Position numbers and translations under genes: made by a program. Below the pieces are notes generated by a model. It saw only the letters and a list, made by a program, of their open reading frames with translations, made no database searches and was not told the DNA's origin. A DNA stretch of 64,000 nt from a virus (Duplodnaviria; Heunggongvirae; Uroviricota; Caudoviricetes; Herelleviridae): positions 91,054 to 155,053 of the IMG/VR virus record IMGVR_UViG_2974542590_000001; one strand, given 5' to 3'. Positions 14,996-64,000 of the stretch are shown here, one piece after another; position 1 is the stretch's first letter; every line of letters starts with the position of its first letter.

Positions 14996-15000
14996 TGGAA

Positions 15001-16884: not shown

Positions 16885-16902
16885 CTAGCTATTGGTAATC
16901 TT

Positions 16903-16976: not shown

Positions 16977-16978
16977 TT

Positions 16979-17052: not shown

Positions 17053-17110
17053 CCCTTAGTTTTTCTATTAGTAACGGTTTTTCGAGAGGGTTATCTTGAA
17101 AAACACAACT

Positions 17111-17184: not shown

Positions 17185-17284
17185 TCGGTTAGTACATTAT
17201 GGTGCCACGGGTGTTTTGTAAGAGGGCACTTACAAGATAAATAAAGCAAGACAGCTTGCTTCCTGCGTAATTACTAACCTAGAA

Positions 17285-17357
17285 CGGCAGTTCGTCCAAT
17301 TGGCTAGGATGCTAGACTACGAATCTAGTGATAGAGGTTCGATTCCTCTGCTGTCGG
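17285..17357 (+). tRNA. tRNA-Arg (anticodon ACG)
   Basis: Acceptor CGGCAGT/GCTGTCG, anticodon stem CTAGA/TCTAG with loop CTACGAA, T arm AGAGG-TTCGATT-CCTCT. Confidence 0.7.
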
Positions 17358-17365
17358 TTAACATA

Positions 17366-17463
17366 CGGGAGTGGCGTGAGGCATACGCACCGTGGAAGAC
17401 ACGGGGAAGTTAATAATTCATGAATAAACCTTCCAATATCGCAGGTTCGAATCCTGCCTTCCG
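17366..17463 (+). ncRNA. 98-nt tRNA-like gene with long extra arm and 5-nt loop where the anticodon loop is expected
   Basis: Acceptor ACGGGAG/CTTCCGT, D stem GCGT/ACGC, extra arm GGAAG...CTTCC, T arm GCAGG-TTCGAAT-CCTGC. The stem CCGTG/CACGG closes the loop GAAGA. Confidence 0.3.
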
Positions 17464-17469
17464 TATAAA

Positions 17470-17500
17470 ATGCGGGTGTCAGAGGTTCAAATCCTCTCAC
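17470..17500 (+). ncRNA. isolated tRNA 3' fragment (T arm AGAGG-TTCAAAT-CCTCT + CACAGGT) with no 5' partner
   Basis: Only ~18 nt separate it from the preceding gene, and no complementary 5' acceptor strand was found. Confidence 0.3.
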
Positions 17501-17593
17501 AGGTATTTGCCTTAATTGGAAAACTATGACCTGTCGTTAGTTTACGTCTTACACTTTTGTGAAGAAACGTTTTTCGGGAGGTAGCTTTTATAT

Positions 17594-18031
17594 ATGAATG
17601 GAGGGGCAATTATGACATATAAAGTGTTACACGGAGAGGACAGTTTAGCGCCTCTGCTATGGACATTTTTTATTAGAGACGGACTATCTGTATCAGAAAC
17701 AGAAAGTTATAAATGTGTTGGTCAACGAGGACTAAATACAGATTATGTTCCACATGAACTAAGCCTTGATACACCTGTTATCTTTTATGAAATGAAGAGT
17801 ACTGTAGTATTTAAATGTGTTAACGGTGTGCAGGAAAAAACACCTTGTTTATTTTTTGATACATCCGAAAAAACTTGTTGTATTACGGAAGAACTATATG
17901 ATATTCTTGAAGAACTATATGGAACTGATATTTATTTCCTAGCTAAAACACTTGACCCAGAATTAGCATTGTCCTCCGTTTATTCAGAAGGTTGGTTATC
18001 TACTTTTATAGAGTTGAGACAGCAGGTTTAG
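17594..18031 (+). CDS. hypothetical protein
   Basis: 145-aa ORF with a GGAGG RBS region. Confidence 0.45.
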   Translation: MNGGAIMTYKVLHGEDSLAPLLWTFFIRDGLSVSETESYKCVGQRGLNTDYVPHELSLDTPVIFYEMKSTVVFKCVNGVQEKTPCLFFDTSEKTCCITEELYDILEELYGTDIYFLAKTLDPELALSSVYSEGWLSTFIELRQQV

Positions 18032-18106
18032 CACACAATAATAAGGAGTGGTTCCTGTGAAGAAAGTATTGTCTAAATTGTAAGTATCTATTAAGGAGGA
18101 CTTACA

Positions 18107-18358
18107 ATGAGTAGAAGTTACAGAAAACCCTATTACCGTTATGTTTGTATGAAGGATTCAACTGTTCGAGACATAAAAAGAATGGTTAACAGAAATTACA
18201 GGCATAAATTAAATCAAGGTCGTTTTGATGACGAAGTAACATTGACACATCATAAACGAGTAGAAGAAACTTGTTGGACGTATGATATGAAAAAATTTTA
18301 TGCTCACGAGGAAGATTACAAGGATAATAATTTTTATCATAAATTGAGAAGAAAGTAG
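18107..18358 (+). CDS. hypothetical basic protein
   Basis: AAGGAGGA RBS. 83 aa, Arg/Lys/Tyr-rich. Confidence 0.5.
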   Translation: MSRSYRKPYYRYVCMKDSTVRDIKRMVNRNYRHKLNQGRFDDEVTLTHHKRVEETCWTYDMKKFYAHEEDYKDNNFYHKLRRK

Positions 18359-18366
18359 GTAATATC

Positions 18367-18588
18367 TTGAAAGCAGATTATGTAGTTGCAGGAGACTGGG
18401 AAGGCATTTATCTTGATGATAAGCTTCAAGTAGAAGGACACAGTATACAAACACCAGATGCAATGAAACTTACTATTGAAAACGAAGTAACGGAGTTAAC
18501 TGTTTACGAGATTGACCAAGAGTATATGGAAGAGCTAGGTTCTCTACCAGAAAGTTTCTCTCAATTAGATTCGTCAAAACTTTTTTAA
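18367..18588 (+). CDS. hypothetical acidic protein
   Basis: 73-aa ORF, start uncertain. Confidence 0.4.
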   Translation: MKADYVVAGDWEGIYLDDKLQVEGHSIQTPDAMKLTIENEVTELTVYEIDQEYMEELGSLPESFSQLDSSKLF

Positions 18589-18599
18589 ATAAATTTATA

Positions 18600-18635
18600 T
18601 GTAAGTGTTGACTTTCCTTACAAGATGCTGTATAG
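18600..18635 (+). promoter_or_regulatory. phage promoter GTGTTGACTT-N17-TATAGT upstream of tnpB
   Basis: gtgttgactttccttacaagatgctgtatagtaattc. Confidence 0.5.
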
Positions 18636-18808
18636 TAATTCTTGTAAGGAACACATGATGGTGACTGTAGCCTAATGGTAAGGCAGTGTTCTGTGGAAAG
18701 AAATGTTCTGGTCTAAAAATTTTTGTCTTTTGACAACCGGCGGTGCACCCATCGGCGTCATAAAGAAATATATTCAGAATCAAGGGAACAATCATAAATA
18801 GAAAGCAG

Positions 18809-19960
18809 GTGAGCCTTATGGAACGACTAAAAGCATACAAATTCAGAATCTATCCAACAGAAGAACAAGAAATATTCTTTGCCAAATCTTTTGGTTGTGT
18901 CCGTAAGGTCTACAATCTAATGCTTGATGACCGAATGAAAACTTATGAAGAAACGAAGAATGACCCCTCTAAAAAAATGAGTTTTCCAACACCTGCGAAA
19001 TATAAAAATGATTTTCCGTTTTTGAAAGAAGTGGACAGTCTTGCTCTAGCCAATGCCCAACTTAATTTAGATAAAGCATATAAGAATTTCTTTCGAGATA
19101 AATCCGTTGGATTTCCTCGATTCAAAAGTAAGAAGAATCCAGTTCAAAGTTATACGACTAATAATCAAAATGGAACAATTGCTTTGATTGATAATAAATT
19201 TATCAAAATTCCTAAGTTGAAGTCACTAGTTAGAATCAAACTTCATAGACAGCCTAAAGGAATCATTAAGTCAGCTACAATATCACGTCATTCAAGTGGT
19301 AAATATTATATTTCCTTATTGTGTAAAGAAGAAATTATAGAATTACCTAAAACTAATTCTACAATTGGTATTGACTTAGGTATTATGGACTTTGCGATTC
19401 TTTCTGACGGACAAAAAATTGATAATAATAAATTCACGTCCAAAATGGAAAAGAAATTGAAACGTGAACAACGTAAGTTGTCTAGACGAGCTTTGGTAGC
19501 TAAAAAGAAAGGCGTAAACCTTTCTGAAGCTAAAAACTACCAAAAACAAAAACGTAAAGTCGCTCGTTTACACGAAAAAGTAGTGAATCAACGTACTGAT
19601 TTTCTGAATAAGTTGAGTACAGAAATTATCAAAAACCACGATATTATCTGTATTGAAGACTTAAACACAAAAGGTATGTTGCGTAATCATAAATTAGCAA
19701 AAAGTATTTCTGATGTGTCTTGGTCTAGTTTTGTAACTAAATTACAATACAAGGCTGACTGGTATGGACGAAAAATCATTAAAGTAGATAAATGGTTTCC
19801 ATCAAGTCAAATTTGTTCAGAATGTGGACATAAAGATGGCAAGAAATCTCTCGAAATTCGAGAATGGACTTGTCCTATTTGCCATACCCGACATGACCGA
19901 GACATCAACGCTAGTATAAACATTCTGAACGAAGGTCTACGAATACAATCACTAGTTTAG
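18809..19960 (+). CDS. tnpB: TnpB (IS200/IS605-family OrfB, RNA-guided RuvC nuclease)
   Basis: N-terminus MERLKAYKFRIYPTEEQE. C-terminal zinc finger CSECGHKDG...CPICHTRHDRDINASINIL (RuvC-III). GAGCC RBS. No tnpA nearby. Confidence 0.8.
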   Translation: MSLMERLKAYKFRIYPTEEQEIFFAKSFGCVRKVYNLMLDDRMKTYEETKNDPSKKMSFPTPAKYKNDFPFLKEVDSLALANAQLNLDKAYKNFFRDKSVGFPRFKSKKNPVQSYTTNNQNGTIALIDNKFIKIPKLKSLVRIKLHRQPKGIIKSATISRHSSGKYYISLLCKEEIIELPKTNSTIGIDLGIMDFAILSDGQKIDNNKFTSKMEKKLKREQRKLSRRALVAKKKGVNLSEAKNYQKQKRKVARLHEKVVNQRTDFLNKLSTEIIKNHDIICIEDLNTKGMLRNHKLAKSISDVSWSSFVTKLQYKADWYGRKIIKVDKWFPSSQICSECGHKDGKKSLEIREWTCPICHTRHDRDINASINILNEGLRIQSLV

Positions 19961-20160
19961 ATAAAAACAATAACCGTAGGAACTACGGGGATAGCTTGGT
20001 AAATAAGAGACACCGCTGTTAGTAAAAAAATAAACTATCAAGTATGCTCTATTCCCAAGAAGCTCCCACTTCAAGCGTAAGAAACCGCTAGGTTTAGCTA
20101 AGTGGTGAGTAGTTCACCCCATTCATAAGAAAAATGTTGATATATAAAGTGGTATTTTTT
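19930..20160 (+). ncRNA. expected omega-RNA / right-end region of the TnpB element (boundaries undefined)
   Basis: Placed by inference from TnpB-system architecture: the guide RNA scaffold overlaps the 3' end of tnpB and the right end. The sequence here is ORF-free and structured. Confidence 0.25.
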
Positions 20161-20449
20161 CAGAAGTGGGAAATCATAAATAATCTAGTTCACAAAGTGA
20201 TTATGTGGGTATGGCGGAATTGGTATATGATGTGAACTTCTCAGTTCAAGTCTGGGTGGAGGTATTACACATATAAAATAAAGTGCGAGGTCAATCATAT
20301 CATTACGATAGTGGATTGAATGATTAGGGTAAAAGACTAACAATCTCCTAATCTAAGAATAGGTAAGTTCCGTTAAATGTCACCCGTGTCCGTCTAAGTA
20401 CGTAAGGTAGAAGTTACACAAAGACAACTTTATTTTATTGGTTCCTTAG

Positions 20450-20515
20450 TGTAGTGGTTATCACATCGCCCTGTCACGGCGAAGATCACAGATTAAATTC
20501 CCGTCAGTTCCATAG
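20450..20515 (+). pseudogene. degenerate tRNA-Asp (GTC)
   Basis: 5' two-thirds is canonical (GGTTCCTTAGTGTAGTGGTTATCACATCGCCCTGTCACGGCGAAG). The T arm (CACAG-ATTAAAT-TCCCG) and 3' acceptor (CAGTTCC instead of AGGAACC) are not. Confidence 0.4.
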
Positions 20516-20644
20516 TCACTGTGGCGGAATAGGTAGACGTATAAGTAGCCAATACTAAAAACGTAGGGTATTTGGAGCTTATTTGAGGGATAGATAGGCG
20601 ACGGCTCGTTCCCAACTGCAAGGTGCAAATCCTTGCCAGTGACA
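20515..20644 (+). ncRNA. tRNA-like gene (Leu-like 5' end GTCACTGTGGCGGAATAGGTAGACG) with ~60-nt internal insertion
   Basis: Perfect acceptor GTCACTG/CAGTGAC and T arm CAAGG-TGCAAAT-CCTTG. The interior is far longer than any variable arm. Confidence 0.3.
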
Positions 20645-20807
20645 TAGACTGCCTTTGTCAAGCAGTCGAATCTTAACTAATTTTTTCACTAAATAAATAT
20701 CGAATTGTGGCTGATTTCTACGGATTCAGAGCGGAGCATCCCCGCAGGTTGGGCATACTACAGTCCCCCCATGATGCTTCATGGGTTATACATAGTTAGG
20801 GGGTAAC

Positions 20808-20993
20808 ATGATGTATTTAAAATTCATTGGTTTAAACGGAAGTTTAGGTTTAGTGAAGGACAAGACATACTTTGTTACCTCTGAGATAAATGAACATTAT
20901 ATTATTTTGAGAATACATGGTGTTCACGGTAGGACAGTAATGTGTCCGTACGAAGCATTAGAAAAAGTGTTAGAAAATTGGCAGGTCTGTTAG
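20808..20993 (+). CDS. hypothetical small protein
   Basis: 61-aa ORF after a GGGGG RBS. Confidence 0.4.
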   Translation: MMYLKFIGLNGSLGLVKDKTYFVTSEINEHYIILRIHGVHGRTVMCPYEALEKVLENWQVC

Positions 20994-21088
20994 TATGCAG
21001 ATAGTAGGGTGTGCATAAAGCCTAGGGAACAATATGCACAGAAGATTAGGTATTGTGTACTTGACACAAACCCGCCTGCTCCCGAGAC

Positions 21089-21175
21089 GGAAGGTTACTC
21101 AAACGGTAAAGAGGCTTGGTTGGAAACCAAGTAGATGTGTAACAGCATGTGTGGGTTCGAATCCCATGCCTTCCA
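21089..21175 (+). tRNA. tRNA-Ser (anticodon GGA), type II
   Basis: Acceptor GGAAGGT/GCCTTCC, anticodon stem CTTGG/CCAAG with loop TTGGAAA, long variable arm, T arm GTGGG-TTCGAAT-CCCAT. Confidence 0.6.
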
Positions 21176-54470: not shown

Positions 54471-55202
54471 ATGCAAATTAAAGGTTGTACAGTAATAGAT
54501 GTAGTTAGTATTGTAGATACTCATGGTAATACAACTGTACGAATGAGGGATAAAGTAACCTTTATGTGTAGTAGGGGTCATGAACAAACTAGAAGAGTCT
54601 ATCAGTGTCTACAGGAAGGCAGTCCCTGTACAGCATGTAAAGGTACGGTTGGGTATACAGGATACTCAAGGTCAGAAGAGATAATATCTAGGGTACTGTC
54701 ATACCATGGTGTAGAACACTTAAGAGAACACAAAATCGTGCACGAAGGGGAGTTACTAAGGGTAGATTTTTACATCCCCAGTATAAATACAATAATAGAG
54801 TATGATGGTAAACAGCATAAGATAGGTAGACCTAAACAAGAAAGTATGAGTGTAGAAGAGCGCACAAGACGAGATAATCTACGTGATGAATACGCACGTT
54901 TACATGGTGTAACTATGATACGTATAGACGACAAAGAAAAAGGAAATAGACTTATTCAGCATATGGCAAAGATATTTCCCGAAATGGGTATTAACCCTCA
55001 GAGTACAGATATGATAGATATAACTCGTGAAGTGTATAACCAGTCAGCAGAAATGTTTGGGTGGACTTCTTATGATGAATTGGAGCGAATAAGTAATATG
55101 CAGAAGCAGTATGGCATTAAAGAAACTATGCGGCTGACAGGTCTGACAAGTTCCCCTATAGGCAGAGCAGTGCATGTTGTAAGAGGTAAAAGTGGGTGTT
55201 GA
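54471..55202 (+). CDS. free-standing homing endonuclease of the zinc-finger + PD-(D/E)xK family; the N-terminal region is frameshifted
   Basis: ..LLRVDFYIPSINTIIEYDGKQHKIG.. matches the two terL-intron HEs. The homologous N-terminal coding continues upstream in the same frame (54309-54470: ...GDYFILTCQKEHRFKFRLDGHYTPRHDCVFCRGKRH) without a start codon. A start-bearing ORF (MELTQREKNIIKLSLKK...) sits in another frame at 54262-54356. Confidence 0.5.
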   Translation: MQIKGCTVIDVVSIVDTHGNTTVRMRDKVTFMCSRGHEQTRRVYQCLQEGSPCTACKGTVGYTGYSRSEEIISRVLSYHGVEHLREHKIVHEGELLRVDFYIPSINTIIEYDGKQHKIGRPKQESMSVEERTRRDNLRDEYARLHGVTMIRIDDKEKGNRLIQHMAKIFPEMGINPQSTDMIDITREVYNQSAEMFGWTSYDELERISNMQKQYGIKETMRLTGLTSSPIGRAVHVVRGKSGC

Positions 55203-55241
55203 CTTTTAGTGTTGACTTTTAGTGTTGACTTTCCAAATTTC
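55203..55241 (+). repeat. triple tandem GTGTTGACTTTTA (three stacked -35 elements)
   Basis: Read directly: gacttttagtgttgacttttagtgttgactttcc. Confidence 0.6.
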
Positions 55242-55371
55242 TAGAAAAAATTTCTAGCTCCCAAAAAATAAGCCCGAGGGTGCGCCCTGCCCTGATAACC
55301 CCCACCCCTAGTAGGGAAAATTTAGTACGGGGTGGGGTTAACTGGTCTAGTCCTATAATACTGGTCTAGTC

Positions 55372-55515
55372 CTATTCGGTTACCTCTTCGAGTTCTTCGA
55401 TTAGTCTTTGGAATGCTTGGTAAACTTCTTCTGAATAATCATCTATATCCATCAAATCATTTTGTAATAGTTCCACTTCTTTTAATAGTCTTTCATATGC
55501 TTTGTTAGTTTCCAT
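55372..55515 (-). CDS. small acidic protein (47 aa)
   Basis: METNKAYERLLKEVELLQNDLMD.... Preceded by the TTGACA-N17 cassette and an AAAGAGAG RBS. Confidence 0.4.
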   Translation of the reverse strand: METNKAYERLLKEVELLQNDLMDIDDYSEEVYQAFQRLIEELEEVTE

Positions 55516-55818
55516 TCTTAACACTCTCTTTCATTTGTTTTATTTATCTTACAAATATAGAATACCAAAGTCATTGCTTAATGTCAATAAAAAAGACTAA
55601 ATGATTAGATAATAATTTTATAGCCCGATTTTAATACTGTACTAATCTTACAATCTGGCAAGCCTAACACCTCCATAGCAAAACCCGCCCGCCATGCTTC
55701 TTTACTCACTAGCCACCTAACGCCCTCATTTTCCACCGTAAGCACCTTATATCCTCCTTTAAGGTATTTATATGTAAAGCCCGCTAAAACCTCGCTACGG
55801 GCTTTATATGCCGTTATA

Positions 55819-56085
55819 TTATAGTCCTAGTTCTGAAAATAACTCTTTTTCATTTGGGTAGATAAGACTTACATTCTTATAAACAAATACTAATTCCGAT
55901 AACTCCTTGTTTTCTAGTTCTTCATTTGATATTTCTACGCTGTAAGCTCCTTGCATGTAAGCAATCAAAACCGGATTTGGATCTACTATGTTCCCTCTAG
56001 TTAGTTCATAGCCTCCTAACTCGTTATATGCTTCTAGTGTAGCGCCTTTGTGTTCTGCTAGTTTGATGAAGTCTTTTAGTTTCAT
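55819..56085 (-). CDS. hypothetical small protein
   Basis: AGAAAGGGAATGAAT RBS. 88 aa. Confidence 0.5.
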   Translation of the reverse strand: MKLKDFIKLAEHKGATLEAYNELGGYELTRGNIVDPNPVLIAYMQGAYSVEISNEELENKELSELVFVYKNVSLIYPNEKELFSELGL

Positions 56086-56137
56086 TTTTATTCATTCCCT
56101 TTCTTGTGTGAGTGAGAGAGGCTTTCCCCTCTCTCTC

Positions 56138-56284
56138 TTATTCTGGATACCGTCCCGTGTCTGCTAGTGTGTTCCCGTCTTCTTCGTCCTTGAATTGGTC
56201 AAAAAATCCCTCGTTTTCTAGTTCGTCCATGAAGTCCTTGAATTCTTTACTATCTAATAACTCGTCTAGTGTCTTGTATTCCAT
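56138..56284 (-). CDS. small acidic protein (48 aa)
   Basis: MEYKTLDELLDSKEFKDFMDELENEGFF.... GGAGGAAACAAC RBS. Replaces the antisense ORF-track call 56112-56321. Confidence 0.45.
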   Translation of the reverse strand: MEYKTLDELLDSKEFKDFMDELENEGFFDQFKDEEDGNTLADTGRYPE

Positions 56285-56496
56285 GTTGTTTCCTCCTTTT
56301 CGTGCATATCTTTTAGTTTAAATTGATAATTTGTTCTATTATTTAAATAATCAATTGTCCATTGTCCGCCATAATCATCAACGAAGTACATTTCACCATA
56401 TTTATTTACTACTACATTATACTCTTTACCTGTCGTCCACCAAGGTGTATCTGACTTCATACATACATATGTTTGCCCTTCGTTTGCGTTTAACAT
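56266..56496 (-). CDS. hypothetical small protein
   Basis: AGGAGGAAAACAAA RBS. Confidence 0.5.
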   Translation of the reverse strand: MLNANEGQTYVCMKSDTPWWTTGKEYNVVVNKYGEMYFVDDYGGQWTIDYLNNRTNYQFKLKDMHEKEETTWNTRH

Positions 56497-56570
56497 TTTG
56501 TTTTCCTCCTCTTTATCTTATGAACTAAGTATAGCATGAGTTGACAATGGTCTCAACTCGTGCTATGATG

Positions 56571-56831
56571 TTAGATATATTCATAAGCTAATTTATCTAA
56601 CCATTTTAGCATCTTTATTTCAGTGCTAACGTCGTTCCCTACCTCTCTTTCTGCTTCTAGCGCGTTCGCAACGTCTTTACAAGCTAATAAATAAGCGCCT
56701 TCGCAACTGAATGGATTTTTGATTGGTTCGATAAAATTGCCGTCTTCGTCGATATGGATGAATGGGTTGTTTTGCTCGTTTTCAATAATTCTGTCATATG
56801 CTTCGTAGTACGCTTCTTTTAAAGTTGTCAT
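56571..56831 (-). CDS. small protein; its N-terminus (MTTLKEAY) is paralogous to the ORF at 59019-59402
   Basis: ATG at 56831 after the AAAGAAAGAGGGAACTAAAA cassette. Confidence 0.55.
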   Translation of the reverse strand: MTTLKEAYYEAYDRIIENEQNNPFIHIDEDGNFIEPIKNPFSCEGAYLLACKDVANALEAEREVGNDVSTEIKMLKWLDKLAYEYI

Positions 56832-56841
56832 TTTTAGTTCC

Positions 56842-56905
56842 CTCTTTCTTTTATTTATCTTACAAATATAGAATACCAAAGTTATCTCTTTTTGTCAATA
56901 GAAAA
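56842..56905 (-). promoter_or_regulatory. representative early-promoter/RBS cassette (TTGACA-N17-TATTCT... AAAGAAAGAGGGA)
   Basis: Minus-strand reading of the region gives ...ctaTTGACAaaaagagataactttggTATTCTatatttgtaagataaataaaagaaagaggga. The cassette is present before 16 minus-strand genes. Confidence 0.55.
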
Positions 56906-57457
56906 GTATAAATTTTTTTCTTTGTGTGGTCGTGCTCGTTTTCCTGTAAGGTTTAACCCTAACCACACCTTTATATTATCATGTATGTTTTAACTTGTCA
57001 AGTATTAAACTCAACTTTTTTTGTTTTGTTTCTCGTCCGATTAGATGCCTCTCTCTTAACTATCTATACTATACCATGTATAGAGATGAAATGCAAGTAT
57101 AAACTATTAAATATTTCAATTTATTTTAAGCTATTTTGAAGCATTCTAACATAGTTCTGTTTATTTATGGATAATTATATATAAATCTATGTAAAACCCC
57201 GCTACGGGCTTTCTGTGGCTTCCTGTGGCTATTATACGCCCTCCAGCTTCCTATTTGTGCTAGAATGATAGAAAAAACAGTGTGCGCCTCTATAAGCGGG
57301 TTCCAAAAAGCTCGACTTTTGAAAATCTGGGGCTTTAGGTCTTTTTAGTTCTTTGGTCTTTTTTCTTATTTTGCTCCTTTTAGGTCTTTTTTTTGAGTTC
57401 CTTGCTCCTTTGCTCCTCTCTCCCTCCCCTCTCTCTCCCTCTCCCTCTCTTATGTCT

Positions 57458-57784
57458 CTATCTACCCCCCTTTGCTCGTCTTTCTGCTCGATTTCTTGAT
57501 ACGGTGCTATATAGTTGCATTTGTCTTTCTGCTTTCTTAAGTTTTTGGCATAGTCGTTTCTGTTCCTGTTCTGATAAGTTCCCTATTGATGTAATACCCC
57601 TCATTCCTTGTATAGTTGCATTTCTCGGGTCTAGTTCTTGCTGTTCTTGCTGTTCATGTTCTAAAATCATTACAAGCCCCTCCCCTTGTCCTTGTCCTTG
57701 TCCTTTTCCTCTCTCTCTTTCCTTATCAAGTTTATTTCTTTTTGTTTGTTTGTTTGTGGTTACATTTAAGAACGTACTCCGCAA
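57458..57784 (-). CDS. possible Gly/Gln/Glu-rich low-complexity protein
   Basis: 108-aa ORF across a polypurine tract. Could be a non-coding compositional artefact. Confidence 0.2.
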   Translation of the reverse strand: MRSTFLNVTTNKQTKRNKLDKERERGKGQGQGQGEGLVMILEHEQQEQQELDPRNATIQGMRGITSIGNLSEQEQKRLCQKLKKAERQMQLYSTVSRNRAERRAKGGR

Positions 57785-58001: not shown

Positions 58002-58123
58002 TCTTATCACTCTCTTTCTTATTTATCTTACAAGTTAATTGTACCAAGTTTATCTCTTTTTGTCAATAGATAAACATAAAAATTTTTAATTTTAGAAAGA
58101 GGGGTTTCCCCCTCCCCCCTTTG

Positions 58124-58537
58124 TTATGCCTGTACCCGGTTAAATTCATTTATAACGGCGTTTTCCCCGTGTTCGTCTAAATAGATTTCTTGTCTTTCCC
58201 CGTCCTTGTAAGTGAATAACCAAAAGCCACCATTTACAGGTTTATAACCAAAGTCAAAATTTTGAAAACCTAACTCAGATAAGAAAGTTGCCACGCTATC
58301 ACTATCAGAACGGCTTTCCCCGTATACCTCTATTAGTTGCATGTTTTCAAGGTCAACTTTTGCGGTTAGTGTTTCATAGTGGTATAAGCTTACTGTTTTA
58401 CCGTTGTTTTCTACTCTATACACTTCTTGTAAGTCCCCCACGCCCCACATGTCTCTTTGTCTTGCTCGTTTGATTGCTTTCCCTTTCTTTTCTGCTCGTT
58501 TCATTAGTGTGATAACTGTTTCAACTTTTTTACTCAT
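58124..58537 (-). CDS. hypothetical protein
   Basis: Cassette-driven. 137 aa. Confidence 0.55.
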   Translation of the reverse strand: MSKKVETVITLMKRAEKKGKAIKRARQRDMWGVGDLQEVYRVENNGKTVSLYHYETLTAKVDLENMQLIEVYGESRSDSDSVATFLSELGFQNFDFGYKPVNGGFWLFTYKDGERQEIYLDEHGENAVINEFNRVQA

Positions 58538-58623
58538 TTTTTAGTCCCTCTTTCTTTTATTTATCTTACATGCTTATTGTATCAAGTTTATCTCTTTTTG
58601 TCAATAACTTTTTTTAAATTTTT

Positions 58624-58902
58624 TTATTCGTGTTTATTCACGTTTTTCCCTAGTTCGTTGCCTAGTTGGTTTTTTACACTTCTAATATATAACTCCAATG
58701 AGCATGCAAGGTTAGAAAGTTCGTTCATTTCTTTCGCTAGTTCTTCCAGTTGTTTGGCTACGTGTTCCGGTGTAGCTCCTTTTCTTGTCTGGTTCTTTAA
58801 GTTGTTAATTTCTTGCTTGTGTAATACTGATAAACGTTTAACGTCGTTTATTGGGTAAAAACTTCTTTCTAGTTGCTGATATAAATATTCTATATTTAAC
58901 AT
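58624..58902 (-). CDS. hypothetical coiled-coil protein
   Basis: AGAAAGGGAGCATAAGA RBS. Confidence 0.5.
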   Translation of the reverse strand: MLNIEYLYQQLERSFYPINDVKRLSVLHKQEINNLKNQTRKGATPEHVAKQLEELAKEMNELSNLACSLELYIRSVKNQLGNELGKNVNKHE

Positions 58903-58992
58903 TCTTATGCTCCCTTTCTATGTCTTTATATTATCAAATTTATTTCTTTTTGTCAATAGATAAACATAAAAAATTTTTATTTTTTTATGTAA

Positions 58993-59011
58993 GGCGGGAA
59001 CACGTCCCGCC
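58993..59011 (-). terminator. rho-independent terminator hairpin GGCGGGAC-gtgt-TCCCGCC
   Basis: Identical copies at 60846-60864 and 61724-61742, each directly downstream of a minus-strand gene and followed (minus sense) by an A/T-rich run. Confidence 0.55.
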
Positions 59012-59018
59012 GTGTTTG

Positions 59019-59402
59019 TTATGCTTCTTCTAGTTCGTCAAGTTCTTGTCTTGCTAGTTCTTCCACCGCAAACCATGCCAGTAAGTTTTGGTTGTTTTGG
59101 TCTGCTAACGGATCTAGGTCGTCCGCTTCTTCTTCTAACAAGTCTTCCCAATCGTTCCACTTGTCACCAAAAAGCCCTTTTTCGTCTAGCCCTGTATCTT
59201 CTTTTAGTTCGTGTAACATTGCAAGAATCTCGTCACGGTGTTCGTTAAAAAATTGAGTTGTTTCGTGGTAGTAAATCAAACCGCCAACCATTCCACTGAT
59301 TGCCCCGTGTTGTGTTAAGTCCTGTAAGTATGTTTTTCGTTCTTCTGGTTCGTTTAGGTTGCTTCCAATAATTTCGTTATATGCTTCTTTTAAAGTTGTC
59401 AT
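59019..59402 (-). CDS. hypothetical acidic protein (MTTLKEAY... paralog)
   Basis: Cassette-driven. 127 aa. Confidence 0.55.
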   Translation of the reverse strand: MTTLKEAYNEIIGSNLNEPEERKTYLQDLTQHGAISGMVGGLIYYHETTQFFNEHRDEILAMLHELKEDTGLDEKGLFGDKWNDWEDLLEEEADDLDPLADQNNQNLLAWFAVEELARQELDELEEA

Positions 59403-59576
59403 TTTTAGTTCCCTCTTTCTTTTATTTATCTTACAAGTTTATTGTATCAGGTCTATTTCTTTTTGTCAATAACTTTGACTAAAATTTTTATACTCTTTTT
59501 TGAGTTCGTCCGAATAAGTGTTTCCTTTGTTTACATGTATAATGTTACCATGTATGTTTTTATTTGTCAACTTTTT

Positions 59577-59750
59577 TTATTCTCGTTTTTTAATTCCTTT
59601 GAGTCGTTTTCTTTCTTCCATGAAATAGTACATTTCTTCTTGTGTGTAGTTACCGTTGTAAATAAATTCGATTGGCTTTTTGATTGTCTCCCGGGCTAAC
59701 TTTTCCATTCTAGCCCGTTTCAAAAATTCTAGTTTTTTGTTCGGTTTCAT
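59577..59750 (-). CDS. small basic protein (57 aa)
   Basis: MKPNKKLEFLKRARMEKLARE.... AAAGGGGGGACGG RBS. Confidence 0.4.
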   Translation of the reverse strand: MKPNKKLEFLKRARMEKLARETIKKPIEFIYNGNYTQEEMYYFMEERKRLKGIKKRE

Positions 59751-59771
59751 ATCGTCACACCGTCCCCCCTT

Positions 59772-60149
59772 TTAATCTCTTTCAATGTACACAAGCCCGT
59801 CAAGTGTAAACACGTTATAAATTTCGGTGTAAGCTCGTATATAATCCCACTTTGTCAAGTCGGTGCTTTCTTCCATTTCGTCTATCATACTATAGGAATC
59901 TGTTTCGTGTAGGTCTGTGTAAATAGCTTCCAAAATGTTTTCATCTGTTAACTCGAAAAACGTGTTTTTTTGTGTAGCCCCGTTGTAGGTTGATAGTGTA
60001 ATGTTTTGGATGTAACCATCTGCGATTTTTTCGTTGAAATCGGCTTGCGCTTCTTCTGGTGTTTCATGGGCTTGTTTGTAGTCATTCATATCCTTATAAC
60101 GTGTAACGTTTGCCAATGCTAGTTGAATATTAGAATTTTTATTTGTCAT
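59772..60149 (-). CDS. hypothetical acidic protein
   Basis: AAGGAGGAACTAAAAA RBS. Confidence 0.55.
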   Translation of the reverse strand: MTNKNSNIQLALANVTRYKDMNDYKQAHETPEEAQADFNEKIADGYIQNITLSTYNGATQKNTFFELTDENILEAIYTDLHETDSYSMIDEMEESTDLTKWDYIRAYTEIYNVFTLDGLVYIERD

Positions 60150-60163
60150 TTTTTAGTTCCTCC

Positions 60164-60418
60164 TTAGAATGTTTCCGCAATAAGTTCCGCTATTACGTCG
60201 TTAACAGTTAACCAAGTCCGGTCACTCTCCGGATATTTATAGCCCGCAAGCTTTACCGCTTTTTTGCTTTTTTCATAGAAATATTTATTTGTAACACCGT
60301 TGTATTTTAGTTCTGAAATTGGTCGACTTGCTAACCATGAATTTTGCACCTCTGCTTTAAAACCTGTAAAATCTACATTTTTTCTTAGATAGTTTTTTAC
60401 CTTTGCTTTTTTACTCAT
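60164..60418 (-). CDS. hypothetical basic protein
   Basis: Cassette-driven. Confidence 0.55.
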   Translation of the reverse strand: MSKKAKVKNYLRKNVDFTGFKAEVQNSWLASRPISELKYNGVTNKYFYEKSKKAVKLAGYKYPESDRTWLTVNDVIAELIAETF

Positions 60419-60503
60419 TTTTTTAGCCCCTCTTTCTTTTATTTATCTTACAAATATAGAATACCAAAGTTATTTCTTTTTGTCAATAACTTTTTTTATT
60501 TTT

Positions 60504-60740
60504 TTATTCTTCTTCTAACGTTTTCCAACTGTTTTCCTTTATTAAGTCTATATCTAAGTTTTGCAAGTCTGAAAATAAAAGGTTTAAATCATACTTTTCT
60601 AGCTCCTGTTGATTGTCTGCCACGTCACCAATATCAATAAGATAGTCTTTTCCCGTTTCTTTTTCGATTAGATGATAATTCATATCCCACGAATTTAATG
60701 GATATTTTAATAAATATTTTTCGTTTTCTGCAATAATCAT
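60504..60740 (-). CDS. hypothetical acidic protein
   Basis: Cassette-driven. Confidence 0.55.
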   Translation of the reverse strand: MIIAENEKYLLKYPLNSWDMNYHLIEKETGKDYLIDIGDVADNQQELEKYDLNLLFSDLQNLDIDLIKENSWKTLEEE

Positions 60741-60876
60741 TTTTTTAGTCCCTCTTTCTTTTATTTATCTTACAAGTTTATTATATAGTGTTTATTTCTT
60801 TTTGTCAATAGATAAACATAAAAATTTTTAATTTTTTTTATGTAAGGCGGGAACACGTCCCGCCGTGTTTGTTATG

Positions 60877-61167
60877 CTAGTAATAAATAGCGTTGTCCCT
60901 ATATTGTTTGACTTCTCTTTGTAGCACGTCTTTCGCTTTGCATGTATTTGCGACTATTCCTCTAGTGCTTGCGGTCGTGCTGTAAAGCTCGTAAACTGTT
61001 CCATCGTTCATCGTTACATATTGATAAACGTAGTGACTGCCGTAGCTAGTTGGTCTTGATTGGATAAAATATGATTGTTCTTGATTGATTTGTGTAGTAT
61101 CTAGGTAGCCCTCACTTCTCCATTCTGTAGCCTTTAACATATGTTTTTGATTGAATTGTTTTTCCAT
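60877..61167 (-). CDS. hypothetical protein
   Basis: Cassette-driven, followed by the terminator. Confidence 0.55.
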   Translation of the reverse strand: MEKQFNQKHMLKATEWRSEGYLDTTQINQEQSYFIQSRPTSYGSHYVYQYVTMNDGTVYELYSTTASTRGIVANTCKAKDVLQREVKQYRDNAIYY

Positions 61168-61252
61168 TTTTAGTTCCCTCTTTCTTTTATTTATCTTACA
61201 AATACATTGTATAGCGTTTATTGTCTTTTGTCAATAACTTTTTTAAATTTTT

Positions 61253-61441
61253 TTATTTATTTTTTACTGTATAATCTAAATCATCGAAAATCATAAAAGC
61301 AAAAATGAACGAAGTTAGTCCGATAATTAGTGACACTGTAAACGAAAATACTGCCGTAACAACTGAACCAAGTAAAAACATGACAGCAAAGGCAGCCAAC
61401 TTTTTATAAAAATTTCTTTTCTTGTATAGTTTCTTTTGCAT
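61253..61441 (-). CDS. small membrane protein
   Basis: AAGGAGGAAAAAGAAAC RBS. One to two TM segments. Confidence 0.5.
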   Translation of the reverse strand: MQKKLYKKRNFYKKLAAFAVMFLLGSVVTAVFSFTVSLIIGLTSFIFAFMIFDDLDYTVKNK

Positions 61442-61752
61442 GTTTCTTTTTCCTCCTTGTTTTACCTTACATCTTTATTATATAGTGTTTATTTCTTTTT
61501 GTCAATAGTTTTGTATAAGTTTTTTATTTAAATTTTTAAGCTCGTTTATTGCCTTGCTTCTTGTCTGTAAAATTTCTTTTATTTCTCTCTTTTCCCTCCT
61601 TGCGATAAAAAAGGTTTTTGCTTTTTTCATGTTTTCCCCTCTCTTTCTATGTCTTTATAATATCAGGTCTATTTCTTTTTGTCAATAGATAAACATAAAA
61701 ATTTTTAATTTTTTTTTATGTAAGGCGGGAACACGTCCCGCCGTTTTATATG

Positions 61753-62028
61753 TTAGTTTTCTGTAATTAGTAAAGCATTTTCCAAAGCTTTTAAGGCGTT
61801 TTCTTTTTGCTCGTTTGTTCCTAAAAATAAGTTGTCAAGTGTTTTACGTGTATAATGTAAGTCCATGTTTACGGTGTCGGGATTGATTGTTTTCATTGCT
61901 AACTTGATACCGTTATACATGCCAACAAGTTCGCTGTGAGTTTCGTTTTCAGATTTTAAACCTCTGTTTACCATTTTAATATTTTTTTCAATCTCTTTTA
62001 AAAAGTTTACAATAATTTGTTTTTCCAT
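61753..62028 (-). CDS. hypothetical protein
   Basis: Cassette-driven, followed by the terminator. Confidence 0.55.
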   Translation of the reverse strand: MEKQIIVNFLKEIEKNIKMVNRGLKSENETHSELVGMYNGIKLAMKTINPDTVNMDLHYTRKTLDNLFLGTNEQKENALKALENALLITEN

Positions 62029-62320
62029 TTTTAAGTCCCTCTTTCTTTTATTTATCTTACAAGTTTATTATATAGTGTTTATTTCTTTTTGTCAATAACT
62101 TTTTTTAAATTTTTTTATTTATTTTTTTGTTAGCTCCTTTCTTTAACTGTCTATACTATACCATGCTTATTTCTTAATGTCAATATAAAACACTAAAAAA
62201 GATGAAAAACTTTTTTCTTCTATATATAAGGAAAAAACGGGTTTGAGTGGTGGCGGATCGAACGGGCAAAGGTGGCAGGTCTGGCGGTCGGATGCCACGC
62301 TTCGAAACTTTATAAGCTGT

Positions 62321-62459
62321 TTGTAGCCCGCTACTTAGAGGATTTTTGTAGCCTGCTACTTAGGGTTTTTTACTGTAGCCCGTTACTTAGAAGATTTTAG
62401 CTAACCTGCTACTTAGAAGAAAAAAGCTAGCCTGCTACTTAGGCTAGCCTGTTACTTAG
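62321..62459. repeat. iteron array: 7 copies of TAGCCYGYTACTTAG at ~20-25-bp spacing
   Basis: The copies read gtagcccgctacttag / gtagcctgctacttag / gtagcccgttacttag / ctaacctgctacttag / ctagcctgctacttag / gctagcctgttacttag. A GC-rich island lies just upstream (62230-62300). Confidence 0.7.
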
Positions 62460-62905
62460 TTATCATATGGTATTGTAAACGTCCCTTGTTCTAATTGAGT
62501 GGCAAGCTGTTCAGCAATGATTAGAAGCCCTAAACGAGCCACCAGACCACGATTGTGTTCTTCTAGTACTAATGGGTCATAATCTTCCCACATCCAACCT
62601 GAGCGCTCGTCAGCTACCTTATTGAATGTAGCTCCTGCACGTAATTCATCTGTGTAATCTCTAAGTATTTCGTTTAGCTCTTCTGTGTAGCCTGTGTACA
62701 CATCTACCAGTTCAGCAGGAGTATCTACATGTAATAAGTCTGCTAGATTCGTGCAACGGTCTTTCCAATTATCTACTGTCAGATTATCAACCTCTTCCTT
62801 CCATACGTCTAAGCTTTGTGTGTCTCTCTCGTCCTCACTAATTTGGTTATGAATTACGGCTACTAAATACTCTCTAAGTGAATCATATTCTGCTGTACCT
62901 AACAT
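62456..62905 (-). CDS. hypothetical acidic protein
   Basis: 149-aa ORF flanked by the two iteron arrays. Confidence 0.5.
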   Translation of the reverse strand: MLGTAEYDSLREYLVAVIHNQISEDERDTQSLDVWKEEVDNLTVDNWKDRCTNLADLLHVDTPAELVDVYTGYTEELNEILRDYTDELRAGATFNKVADERSGWMWEDYDPLVLEEHNRGLVARLGLLIIAEQLATQLEQGTFTIPYDN

Positions 62906-62923
62906 TGTATCATATCCCCTTTC

Positions 62924-63045
62924 ATCCTATCCTAAGTGTATCCTATCCTAAGTGCATCCTATCCTAAACCTATCCTATCTTATCCTAAATGTATCCTATC
63001 TTATCCTATCCTAATAGCTATTCATCCTCGTATATCCTATCTATA
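62924..63045. repeat. second iteron array: ~8 copies of ATCCTATCCTAA(G/A)TG and TATCCTATCT variants
   Basis: Read directly. Confidence 0.7.
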
Positions 63046-63506
63046 ACTAGTCTTAGCGCCTCTGATGGGGTTTCCTCATATGCACCAAGATATGCACGTA
63101 AAGCATCTAACAGTTGTTTATTTCCTATCATAGGAACCTGCTTACCATCTCCACCTTTTTTATGGAAAAGGCTATTATATTCCCCACTCATTGCATTAAA
63201 GATAATAGAATCAACTACCTCCTTAATTGGCTTTCCTTCCTTTTCAGCTTGTTGGACTATTCTTTCTCTCTGTCTCTTCGTTATTGCAAAAGTACTAATG
63301 TCTGTTCGTTTCTCATCAATTTCGTGCTTTCTTGGTCTACCAGCTTTAGGTCTAATCTTATTTAACGAGGTTTCTCGTTTGTATATCTGTTGTACTCGTT
63401 GTTGAGAGATGTTATACTCAGAAGCAATATCCTTAAACGTTCTTCCTGCCTGTCTCATACGTACAATTGCTTGATTTCTTTTCTTTTTAGTTACCATATC
63501 ATGCAT
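63018..63506 (-). CDS. DNA-binding protein with N-terminal HTH
   Basis: ..IVRMRQAGRTFKDIASEYNISQQRVQQIYKR.. has a Hin/sigma-4-like helix-turn-helix. Confidence 0.5.
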   Translation of the reverse strand: MHDMVTKKKRNQAIVRMRQAGRTFKDIASEYNISQQRVQQIYKRETSLNKIRPKAGRPRKHEIDEKRTDISTFAITKRQRERIVQQAEKEGKPIKEVVDSIIFNAMSGEYNSLFHKKGGDGKQVPMIGNKQLLDALRAYLGAYEETPSEALRLVIDRIYEDE

Positions 63507-63519
63507 TAGTCTTAACCTC

Positions 63520-63852
63520 CTATTCTACTCCAAAACTTTCTAGTAAACCTGTCCAATCAATGTCCAAGCTGTTTGCAAAATCTGCAAGACCTGCTTCTTC
63601 ATAGTACTCTACAATCTCGTCTAAGTCCATATATACTAATACTTCTTTTTCCGTCATATCTTTAAAGTGTTCAATAGCTTCCGTGTCTCCGTCATCCTTC
63701 TTGTCTGCGACCCACTGTTTGAACAAAGCTAGTTTCTTCTTGTCACTCGATTCTAGTTCAGCAATAATATGTTCTACCACTGCATCGTCATATTCTCCAT
63801 CTCTAATAATATCCTCTACTGTTACATGTTTGTTAAAGTTTAACATTGTCAT
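63520..63852 (-). CDS. hypothetical acidic protein
   Basis: 110-aa ORF. Confidence 0.45.
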   Translation of the reverse strand: MTMLNFNKHVTVEDIIRDGEYDDAVVEHIIAELESSDKKKLALFKQWVADKKDDGDTEAIEHFKDMTEKEVLVYMDLDEIVEYYEEAGLADFANSLDIDWTGLLESFGVE

Positions 63853-64000
63853 CTCTCCCTTTCCTTATCTTCATACATAGTATAACTCTTATATTGTTTA
63901 TTGTCAATAGGTTTGTATAAATAAAATTCTACCGCACATTCCTGTTAAATATACGGTAGAATTAGGACTTCTACGCTGTTAAGATGAAACCGCGTCTTCA

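What the first reader, a model, noticed from the sequence alone, without database searches (positions are those of the whole stretch)
62100..63100. Two iteron arrays plus a GC-rich island next to an HTH protein: candidate origin or packaging site
Seven spaced TAGCCYGYTACTTAG repeats lie at 62321-62459. About eight ATCCTATCCTAA(G/A)TG repeats lie at 62924-63045.

An atypically GC-rich segment (ggtggcggatcgaacgggcaaaggtggcaggtctggcggtcggatgccacgc, 62240-62295) lies just upstream of the first array. The 62456-62905 gene sits between the arrays, and the HTH protein gene (63018-63506) lies immediately beside the second.

Iteron sets adjacent to a DNA-binding protein gene are characteristic of replication origins or of pac sites recognised by a small terminase.
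Basis: partly seen in the sequence, partly recalled or inferred. Interest (0 to 1): 0.65.

Follow-up and report, generated by a model that had tools for sequence, protein, structure and literature searches.

The report
Conserved repeat module in enterococcal myophage
Both repeat arrays are real and belong to a non-coding DNA module conserved across Enterococcus and Listeria SPO1-like phages; it is not the packaging site or tied to the neighbouring HTH gene, and is a plausible but unproven replication origin or early-region boundary.

Summary
The window is the last 64 kb of Enterococcus phage EFP01 (Herelleviridae, Schiekvirus).

**Observation.** The repeats exist, with corrections:
- Array A has six copies, not seven. 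Each is CTAA plus the 12-bp palindrome GTAGC(N)GGCTAC.
- Array B is about 14 TAGGA/TAAGA pentamers on the coding strand.
- The GC island is real (63% GC).

**New findings.**
- In the whole 155-kb genome each repeat type clusters in only two places. Both times the order is [B]–gene–[A]. The second copy lies 1.2 kb beyond the window end.
- The module recurs in all Schiekvirus and Kochikohdavirus relatives examined and in the Listeria Pecentumvirus phages examined. In Listeria it is (TAGGA)27+33 plus six dispersed A units, with no gene between them.
- The upstream HTH gene is replaced by other genes in some relatives, yet the arrays persist.

**Interpretation.**
- The pac/terminus reading is rejected. 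Mapped termini in iF6, Porthos and phage 163 lie about 4–6 kb away.
- The origin reading survives but is circumstantial. Supporting it: palindromic multi-copy sites, a fixed 158–163-bp spacer, the second-lowest-GC tract of the genome, and a published "transcriptional dead zone" at the Listeria counterpart. Against it: no adjacent initiator gene, no DnaA boxes, irregular spacing.
- Rival readings are an early-region boundary or operator element, and a T5-like injection-stop site.

The parts
62324..62459 (-). Array A. Six same-orientation units, reading CTAAGTARCRGGYTA(G/C) on the coding (minus) strand. The core is the 12-bp palindrome GTAGC(N)GGCTAC.
   Evidence: One of only two clusters in the 155-kb genome. 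Conserved in Schiekvirus, Kochikohdavirus and Listeria Pecentumvirus.
62414..62450 (-). Intrinsic-terminator-like hairpin formed by the two GCTAGC-type A units: a 10-bp stem AGGCTAGCCT/AGGCTAGCTT followed by TTTTTTCTTCT. It lies directly after the stop codon of the 149-aa gene.
   Evidence: -16.1 kcal/mol. A terminator is annotated at the same place in phage 113 (H135).
62240..62300 (.). GC-rich island. It is C-rich on the coding strand and contains an internal GCCACC...CCCGTT direct repeat. It acts as a fixed-length spacer between the last A unit and the next promoter.
   Evidence: GC 0.63. No significant or conserved RNA fold. No Rfam hit. The distance from the last A unit to the -35 is 158-163 bp in 13 Enterococcus phages, even where the island sequence differs.
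62040..62230 (-). AT-rich tract with two tandem near-consensus sigma-A promoters: 62183->62155 (TTGACA-17-TATAGT) and 62095->62067 (TTGACA-17-TATAAT). They drive the 91-aa gene at 62028-61753.
   Evidence: It overlaps the second-lowest-GC 300-nt window of the whole genome (window 61938-62237, 20.3%).
62456..62905 (-). Gene for a 149-aa acidic (pI 4.1), predicted all-helical protein of unknown function. In Enterococcus phages it is the only gene that always lies between arrays B and A.
   Evidence: No Pfam, NCBIfam or PDB relative. PHROG 17103, function unknown.
62919..63045 (-). Array B. About 14 TAGGA/TAAGA pentamers on the coding strand. It runs from the last codons of the HTH gene to the Shine-Dalgarno sequence and ATG of the 149-aa gene. 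Copy number is hypervariable among relatives (6-19 units in Enterococcus phages; 27+33 in Listeria phage cka15).
   Evidence: PMC12282133.
63018..63506 (-). Gene for a 162-aa basic (pI 9.8) protein: an N-terminal HTH, a GRPRK AT-hook-like motif, and two ribbon-helix-helix-like segments. It is a variable neighbour, not a conserved partner of the arrays.
   Evidence: The RHH assignment is inferred from the secondary-structure pattern, from the EA1 annotation of the type-2 homologue and from a weak PDB hit (2k1o, E = 0.07).
63520..63852 (-). Gene for a 110-aa acidic protein, the first gene of the operon. Its promoter is at 63907->63879.

Best explanation
The two arrays, the GC island and the AT-rich promoter tract form one conserved, cis-acting, non-coding DNA module of Brockvirinae and Pecentumvirus phages. 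The module sits in the sigma-A-promoter-rich early region, 5 kb inside the right terminal repeat.

**Shown:**
- Array A is a set of 12-bp palindromes, the typical form of a binding site for a dimeric DNA-binding protein. All copies share one orientation.
- The first two A units also form the terminator of the upstream gene.
- The remaining units lie in a gap between that terminator and the next promoters, which is predicted to be little transcribed.
- That gap also holds a length-conserved GC-rich spacer and is followed by one of the most AT-rich tracts of the genome.

**Inferred mechanism (best guess):** an early replication origin. An as-yet unidentified, probably phage-encoded protein would occupy the A palindromes. 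Melting of the adjacent AT-rich tract would be helped by transcription from the flanking consensus promoters. The purine-rich (UAGGA)n transcript of array B could form a stable RNA:DNA hybrid, as at T4-type origins. That fits the T4-like UvsW/UvsX/UvsY replication gene set.

The neighbouring HTH protein is not required for the module to persist.
For: - **Uniqueness and pairing.** A units and B pentamers each cluster at only two places in 155 kb. Both times the order is [B]-gene-[A] in the same orientation.
- **Deep conservation.** The unit sequence is kept across genera with otherwise unalignable flanks.
- **Phage-specific.** No arrays of the motif occur in 596 Gb of bacterial genomes.
- **Site form.** The A unit is a 12-bp palindrome; the perfect form GTAGCCGGCTAC occurs in cka15.
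- **Spacer.** The A-to-promoter distance is conserved at 158-163 bp despite non-homologous spacer sequence.
- **AT-rich tract.** The adjacent tract is the second-lowest-GC 300-nt window of the genome.
- **Published data.** The homologous 1.2-kb region of Listeria phage CKA15 is a 'transcriptional dead zone' in RNA-seq, and its authors suggested an origin (PMC12282133).
- **Replication genes.** They are T4-like, with no annotated initiator.
- **Hybrid stability.** A sense transcript of array B is predicted to favour RNA:DNA over DNA:DNA pairing, about 3.3 sd below the genome mean.
Against: - No initiator or Rep-like gene is adjacent. The neighbouring genes are variable.
- There are no DnaA boxes nearby.
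- A-unit spacing is irregular: 17-28 bp here, 24-31 bp in EF24C and 24-336 bp in cka15. Classical iterons are helically phased.
- AT-richness is shared with other early promoter regions. The lowest-GC tract of the genome is elsewhere, at window 13762-14100.
- Stronger predicted hybrid-forming tracts lie at the DTR boundary.
- In Enterococcus phages array B is an intercistronic leader running into a ribosome-binding site. That fits expression control equally well.
- No replication data exist for any of these phages.
Confidence: 0.35

Rival explanations
1. An early-region boundary or regulatory element. The A palindromes are operators for a phage regulator that silences or insulates the strong early promoters downstream. 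Together with the terminators, they stop read-through between transcription units. No role in replication.
For: - Every A cluster lies between a terminator and the next sigma-A promoter or promoters.
- The second cluster (record 1193-1257) sits exactly at the upstream edge of the promoter-dense early region. Eleven promoters scoring >=11/12 lie within about 7 kb, against 8 on the same strand in the rest of the genome.
- The A-to-promoter distance is conserved.
- An XRE-type repressor-like gene is conserved nearby in all Brockvirinae.
- The CKA15 dead zone separates a virion-protein gene from early genes.
Against: - The sites lie 33-215 bp upstream of the -35 element and do not overlap the promoters.
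- Copy numbers of 4-17 that expand freely are unusual for operators.
- The XRE protein has no detectable homologue in Listeria phages, which carry the same sites.
- This reading does not explain the (TAGGA)n arrays.
Confidence: 0.28
2. Array B acts at the RNA level. It would be an unstructured (UAGGA)n leader that serves as a lattice for an RNA-binding translational regulator, or as a ribosome stand-by site, for the 149-aa gene and the 186-aa membrane-protein gene. This can coexist with any reading of array A.
For: - In every Enterococcus phage examined the pentamers run into the SD and the ATG of the gene. In PEF1 and phiSHEF13 they fill the SD-ATG spacer.
- The same arrangement precedes the second gene.
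- All units are on the coding strand.
- From general knowledge: the 5-nt UAG+2 period matches the geometry of TRAP-type (G/U)AG-NN binding sites.
Against: - In Listeria phages the arrays are followed by terminators, not by a gene (PMC12282133).
- No candidate RNA-binding protein was identified.
- TRAP and CsrA are, to my knowledge, not found in E. faecium. This was not tested.
Confidence: 0.15
3. A T5-like injection-stop or DNA-anchoring element. The two repeat clusters, 7-10 kb from the right genome end, would pause or anchor the entering DNA so that only the early region is exposed first.
For: - Like the T5 repeat regions R2 and R3 (bioRxiv 10.1101/866236), there are two non-coding repeat clusters a variable distance apart (1.75-4.3 kb).
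- The repeats are better conserved than the ORFs between them.
- They lie at a similar distance from a long-DTR genome end and bound the early genes.
Against: - There are no DnaA boxes.
- Two-step injection has not been reported for Herelleviridae, and I do not know which end enters first in these phages.
- The repeats are direct, not inverted as in T5.
- Early-type promoters also occur between the two clusters.
Confidence: 0.08
4. One reading: the arrays are a pac site, or a centromere- or operator-like target, of the adjacent HTH protein. That protein would act as a small-terminase-like or omega/ParG-like binder.
For: - The protein is basic and has an HTH, an AT-hook-like motif and RHH-like segments.
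- RHH proteins such as omega bind arrays of short direct repeats (general knowledge).
- Type-1 and type-2 variants share the AT-hook/RHH-like core.
Against: - Termini map about 4-6 kb away in iF6 (experimentally), Porthos and phage 163 (PMC10054541, PMC11210271, PMC9860891).
- The gene is absent or truncated in TJE1, phiSHEF13, PEF1 and phage 156, and has no detectable homologue in other Kochikohdavirus or in Listeria phages. All of these keep the arrays.
- No ParA-type gene is adjacent.
Confidence: 0.07

Closest known systems
Lambda-type and plasmid iteron origins (ori-lambda: four dyad-symmetric O-binding sites next to an AT-rich tract)
   Same: Multiple copies of a dyad-symmetric site about 24-28 bp apart. 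They lie beside a very AT-rich tract flanked by active promoters.
   Different: No initiator gene overlaps or adjoins the sites. Spacing is irregular and the copy number is free to vary (4-17). There is a second small cluster 2.8 kb away. An associated pentamer microsatellite has no counterpart in ori-lambda.
The 'dead zone'/(TAGGA)n region of Listeria phage CKA15 (PMC12282133) and the putative Kayvirus origin (PMC9241854, PMC11598898)
   Same: The CKA15 region is the direct counterpart of this locus: TAGGA arrays, A units and an AT-rich double promoter. The Kayvirus proposal uses the same style of argument (untranscribed, lowest GC, direct repeats).
   Different: In the passages I read, the CKA15 paper describes the TAGGA repeats and the AT-rich segment. 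It does not describe the palindromic A units or the duplicated [B]-gene-[A] layout. The Kayvirus locus is not sequence-related. Neither has replication data.
T4 oriF/oriG and ColE1-type transcript-primed (R-loop) origins
   Same: A transcript from an upstream promoter crosses a tract where an RNA:DNA hybrid is favoured. The phage encodes UvsW-, UvsX- and UvsY-like proteins.
   Different: No microsatellite or palindromic protein sites are part of the T4 origins. The hybrid preference here is moderate and is not the strongest in the genome.
T5 injection stop signal region (repeat regions R2/R3)
   Same: Two conserved non-coding repeat clusters, a variable few kb apart, near the end of a long-DTR genome. 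They bound pre-early or early genes.
   Different: T5 has inverted repeats with paired DnaA boxes, and they lie inside the terminal repeat. Here the repeats are direct, there are no DnaA boxes, and the module is outside the DTR.
Omega/ParG-type RHH heptad arrays and the pAD1 RepC 8-bp iteron arrays that flank par genes
   Same: Arrays of very short direct repeats flank a small gene cassette. An RHH-like protein is encoded next door in some phages.
   Different: The two flanking arrays are of different types. There is no ParA. The RHH-like gene is dispensable for keeping the arrays.

Membership tests
Iteron-type replication origin | Several copies of a 12-22-bp initiator-binding repeat | tested here: met
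   Six units here and 4-17 in relatives. Binding itself was not tested.
Iteron-type replication origin | An adjacent AT-rich DNA-unwinding tract | tested here: inconclusive
   The window 61938-62237 is the second-lowest-GC 300-nt window of the genome. The tract is also a double promoter, and similar AT-rich promoter tracts occur nearby.
Iteron-type replication origin | A cognate initiator gene overlapping or next to the repeats | tested here: not met
   The neighbours have no Rep or initiator domain and vary between phages. No initiator is annotated in Porthos.
Iteron-type replication origin | Regular, helically phased spacing | tested here: not met
   Spacing is 17/25-28 bp here, 24/31/31 bp in EF24C and 24-336 bp in cka15.
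Iteron-type replication origin | Supports initiation of replication | not testable with these tools
   Needs marker-frequency or nascent-strand data, or an ori-trap plasmid assay.
pac / terminase recognition site | Lies at or next to the packaged DNA termini | tested here: not met
   The DTR equivalent is 55277-57327. Termini were mapped in iF6, Porthos and phage 163 (PMC10054541, PMC11210271, PMC9860891). Array A is 5.0 kb from the boundary in EFP01, about 4-6 kb in the relatives.
pac / terminase recognition site | Bound by the small terminase | not testable with these tools
   The adjacent HTH protein has no terminase-family hit.
RHH centromere/operator arrays (omega, ParG) | A cognate RHH protein gene is conserved next to the repeat arrays | tested here: not met
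   The arrays persist where the gene is replaced or deleted.
RHH centromere/operator arrays (omega, ParG) | A partner ParA-type ATPase | not tested
   None is adjacent in the annotations seen. The whole genome was not searched.
T5-type injection stop signal | Two conserved non-coding repeat regions, separated by variable coding DNA, near a DTR genome end | tested here: met
T5-type injection stop signal | Paired DnaA boxes in the repeats | tested here: not met
   No DnaA box at up to 1 mismatch between 57175 and 64000, and no enrichment overall.
T5-type injection stop signal | Two-step DNA entry | not testable with these tools
   Needs an infection experiment.
Structured non-coding RNA (for the GC island) | Match to a known family, or a conserved or unusually stable fold | tested here: not met
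   Rfam gave nothing credible. Fold z-scores were 0.07 and 0.22. The alignment fold was -0.11 kcal/mol with no covariation.

The most novel reading that the evidence does not exclude
The duplicated [(TAGGA)n]-gene-[palindrome array] module is a previously uncharacterised cis-element of SPO1-like phages of Enterococcus and Listeria. It would work either as a transcript-primed origin, in which a purine-rich microsatellite RNA forms the priming hybrid and the palindromes bind a loader or barrier protein, or as a T5-like entry-stop and anchoring site that delimits the early region.
Probability: 0.15. Interest if true: 0.8.

Novelty: new variant of a known kind. Interest (0 to 1): 0.5.

Why it matters
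Schiekvirus, Kochikohdavirus and Pecentumvirus phages are used or developed for therapy and food safety. In the papers I searched I found no experimentally mapped replication origin or early-region control element for them. This work gives a short, conserved and experimentally tractable set of DNA sites. Deletion, pull-down or marker-frequency experiments on them could locate the origin or the boundary element.

The arrays also matter for engineering. They are hypervariable tandem repeats, and I infer that they break assemblies, because several GenBank records start inside them.

Tried and rejected
- **Known RNA families.** Rfam at gathering and at permissive thresholds found nothing for the GC island or the arrays.
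- **RNA folding of the GC island.** Folding either strand, and folding an 11-phage alignment, showed no stable or covarying structure.
- **Hairpins within A units.** An RNA-hairpin reading was rejected because the variable positions include frequent A·C mismatches.
- **DnaA boxes.** None near the arrays.
- **Host mimicry.** The A motif occurs only as single, chance-level hits in bacterial genomes.
- **Protein homology for the 162-aa and 149-aa proteins.** Almost nothing was found outside these phages, and there was no useful PDB or NCBIfam hit.
- **Structure prediction.** The AlphaFold models were of low confidence (pLDDT 57.7 and 54.4), so no fold search was run.
- **Genome-wide GC skew.** I did not compute it. 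Strand composition in such phages usually follows transcription direction, and that direction switches at the DTR boundary and near window 12.6 kb.
- **RNA:DNA hybrid energy scan.** It gave only moderate support for array B. The strongest tracts are at the DTR boundary.
- **XRE regulator as the A-unit binder.** Co-occurrence holds in Brockvirinae but fails in Listeria phages.
Full report
**Identity of the window.**
- Megablast shows that the window is the last 64,000 nt of the GenBank record of Enterococcus phage EFP01 (KY549443.1, 155,053 bp; Herelleviridae, Brockvirinae, Schiekvirus). Window coordinate + 91,053 = record coordinate.
- The record is an arbitrarily opened circle, so sequence just beyond the window end is record position 1 onward.
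- All genes in 59.7-64 kb are on the minus strand.

**The observation.**
- Array A consists of six, not seven, copies of TAGCCYGYTACTTAG at 62324-62459, spaced 25/27/26/26/17 nt. None of 100 shuffles gives six matches.
- Array B is a run of about 14 pentamers (TAGGA/TAAGA on the coding strand) from 63045 to 62923, including three clean 16-nt units.
- The GC island reaches 63% GC, next to DNA of 12-27% GC.
- The two ORFs are as described, and the 162-aa protein has a significant N-terminal HTH.

**Anatomy on the coding strand.**
- A near-consensus sigma-A promoter (63907->63879) precedes a three-gene unit: a 110-aa acidic protein, the 162-aa basic HTH protein and a 149-aa acidic protein.
- Array B fills the 112-nt gap between the second and third genes and runs into the Shine-Dalgarno sequence.
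- Array A starts at the stop codon of the third gene.
- Its first two units (GCTAGC variants, 17 nt apart) form a 10-bp hairpin followed by a T-run, which is terminator-like. A terminator is annotated at this place in phage 113.
- Four more units follow, then the GC island, then an AT-rich tract with two tandem promoters for the next gene.
- Each A unit is CTAA plus the 12-bp palindrome GTAGC(N)GGCTAC. The perfect form GTAGCCGGCTAC occurs in a Listeria phage.

**The arrays are paired and duplicated.**
- I scanned the complete genome (L011 + L012 + window). The A motif clusters at only two places: the six units above, and three units at record 1193-1257, which is 1.2 kb beyond the window end.
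- The pentamers also cluster at only two places: array B, and record 1825-1865.
- The second set brackets another gene, EFP01_004, a 186-aa predicted membrane protein. Pentamers lie in its ribosome-binding region. A units follow its stop codon directly, then a clean intrinsic terminator and two promoters.
- So the layout [B]-gene-[A]-promoters occurs twice, 2.8 kb apart, in the same orientation.

**Conservation.**
- All Schiekvirus relatives examined keep both clusters. The main array has 5-8 A units, and B varies from 6 to 19 pentamers.
- Phage 156 (classified as a Kochikohdavirus) has 17 A units, 15 of them perfect 24-nt tandem copies.
- EF24C has B, a 148-aa acidic-protein gene that tblastn with the 149-aa protein did not detect, a hairpin terminator, four A units, a different GC island and one promoter.
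- A sensitive blastn with array A also hits Listeria Pecentumvirus phages. In cka15 two long runs of TAGGA pentamers ((TAGGA)27 and (TAGGA)33 according to PMC12282133), each ending in a terminator, are followed by six A units dispersed over about 550 bp. Then come a G-rich patch and an AT-rich double promoter. There is no gene between B and A.
- All A units are in one orientation.
- The motif does not form arrays in any of 185,579 bacterial species genomes. It therefore looks phage-specific rather than a copy of a host site.

**The HTH neighbour is not a conserved partner.**
- The 162-aa protein (type 1) is present at >=93% identity in about 20 phage records.
- In Ben, EA1, Bop, ZJGS and others it is replaced by a 214-aa protein. 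That protein lacks the HTH and shares only an AT-hook-like GRPRK motif and two RHH-like segments, at about 29% identity.
- In TJE1, phiSHEF13 and PEF1 a TM2 membrane protein takes its place.
- In phage 156 only its last 43 codons remain.
- Other Kochikohdavirus and Listeria phages show no match to it.
- Arrays A and B are intact in all of them.
- The family is tiny: two near-identical clusters in 5.8 billion proteins, and a handful of full-length relatives among 1.84 billion representatives.

**Packaging.**
- iF6, which is 92% identical over this region, has 2,108-bp direct terminal repeats. They were mapped by restriction analysis, RAGE and Sanger sequencing (PMC10054541).
- Porthos has a 2,552-bp DTR, annotated at its record ends (PMC11210271).
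- Phage 163 has a 2,105-bp DTR (PMC9860891).
- Aligning the Porthos DTR places the equivalent at window 55277-57327, 5.0 kb from array A.
- The pac/terminus reading is therefore rejected.
- Some records begin inside the array (KEN11, Sw5). I think this most likely reflects assemblies breaking at tandem repeats. That is an inference.

**What speaks for an origin.**
- The site form and number fit: palindromic, multi-copy, conserved and phage-specific.
- The distance from the last A unit to the next -35 element is 158-163 bp in 13 Enterococcus phages. This holds even though the GC island of phage 156 is unrelated in sequence.
- The AT-rich tract is the second-lowest-GC 300-nt window of the genome.
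- The CKA15 study found the homologous 1.2 kb to be a relative 'transcriptional dead zone' and proposed an origin there. It cited the analogous argument made for phage K.
- The replication genes are T4-like (UvsW, UvsX, UvsY, DnaB-like helicase, primase, SbcCD, family-A polymerase), with no annotated initiator.
- That makes a transcript-assisted origin conceivable. A sense (UAGGA)n RNA is predicted to prefer RNA:DNA over DNA:DNA pairing, about 3.3 sd below the genome mean.

**What speaks against.**
- There is no adjacent initiator gene and no DnaA box.
- Spacing is irregular, especially in Listeria phages.
- AT-richness is a general property of the early promoters here, and the genome minimum is at window 13762-14100.
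- The strongest predicted hybrid-forming tracts are at the DTR boundary.
- There are no replication data.

**Alternatives.**
- The second cluster sits exactly at the upstream edge of the promoter-dense early region. Eleven near-consensus promoters lie within about 7 kb, against eight on the same strand in the rest of the genome. Every cluster lies between a terminator and promoters. This fits a boundary or operator role.
- The pentamers always run into the ribosome-binding sites in Enterococcus phages, which fits translational control. In Listeria they precede terminators, not genes.
- The layout also resembles the T5 injection-stop region: two conserved repeat clusters a variable few kb apart, near a long-DTR end, better conserved than the ORFs between them. 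However, it lacks the DnaA boxes and the inverted symmetry of T5.

**The GC island.** It matches no known RNA family and shows no stable or covarying fold. Its conserved feature is its length and position.

**Verdict.**
- The pac-site and 'HTH partner' parts of the interpretation are wrong.
- The origin idea remains the leading hypothesis but is weakly supported (about 0.35).
- The main new result is that the finding is one copy of a duplicated non-coding module conserved across genera. I found only part of it described in the papers I read (the (TAGGA)n arrays and AT-rich segment, in PMC12282133).

Noticed in passing
KY549443.1 record 1163-1257 and 1825-1865 (L002; 1.2-1.9 kb beyond the window end): This is the second copy of the module. 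B-type pentamers lie in the ribosome-binding region of EFP01_004 (186 aa, predicted membrane protein). Three A units follow its stop codon. Then comes a clean intrinsic terminator (AGAGACATC...GGTGTCTCT + T8) and two promoters.
   Followed up: yes
window 55277-57327, with flanks 55196-55232 and 57330-57760: This is the equivalent of the direct terminal repeat mapped in Porthos, iF6 and phage 163. Just outside one boundary there are three copies of GTGTTGACTTTTA. Just inside the other lies a purine-rich repeat tract on the coding strand (AGGGAG, GACAAG, AAAAGACCTAAA units). That tract includes the strongest predicted RNA:DNA-hybrid-favouring stretch of the genome (57398-57477). These are better candidates for terminase recognition than the arrays.
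   Followed up: partly
window 13762-14100: This is the lowest-GC tract of the whole genome (19.7% over 300 nt), with imperfect TA-rich repeats. It lies upstream of the tRNA/ROOL region. By the 'lowest GC' criterion used for phage K, it is a rival origin candidate.
   Followed up: partly
window 15187-15773 (+) and 14815-21175 (+): A full-length ROOL RNA (Rfam RF03087, 264.8 bits) sits among a cluster of tRNA genes (seven by ARAGORN, eight by Rfam).
   Followed up: no
window 58066-63907 and record 1080 (minus strand): Eleven near-consensus sigma-A promoters (TTGACA-17-TATAAT, >=11/12) lie within about 7 kb. Many sit in a repeated ~30-60-nt promoter cassette (families D2, D5 and D7). Only eight further such promoters occur on the same strand in the rest of the genome.
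   Followed up: partly
window 60846-60864 and 61724-61742: An identical GC-rich hairpin, GGCGGGAACACGTCCCGCC, occurs twice between early genes. It is probably a shared terminator.
   Followed up: no
L013 4660-5022 (phage 156, PHI156_116): This annotated CDS lies entirely inside the 15 perfect 24-nt A-unit tandem repeats. It is probably not a gene.
   Followed up: no
L007, L008, L009 and records KEN11 (4-126) and Sw5 (12-136): Several GenBank records of related phages start or end within, or a few hundred bases from, the arrays. I think assemblies break at these tandem repeats. Record starts should not be read as termini.
   Followed up: no
window 63018-63506 (-): Beyond the HTH, the 162-aa protein has a GRPRK AT-hook-like motif and two consecutive strand-helix-helix-like segments (about residues 70-107 and 124-159). 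This suggests a single-chain tandem RHH. The AlphaFold model was of low confidence outside the HTH.
   Followed up: partly
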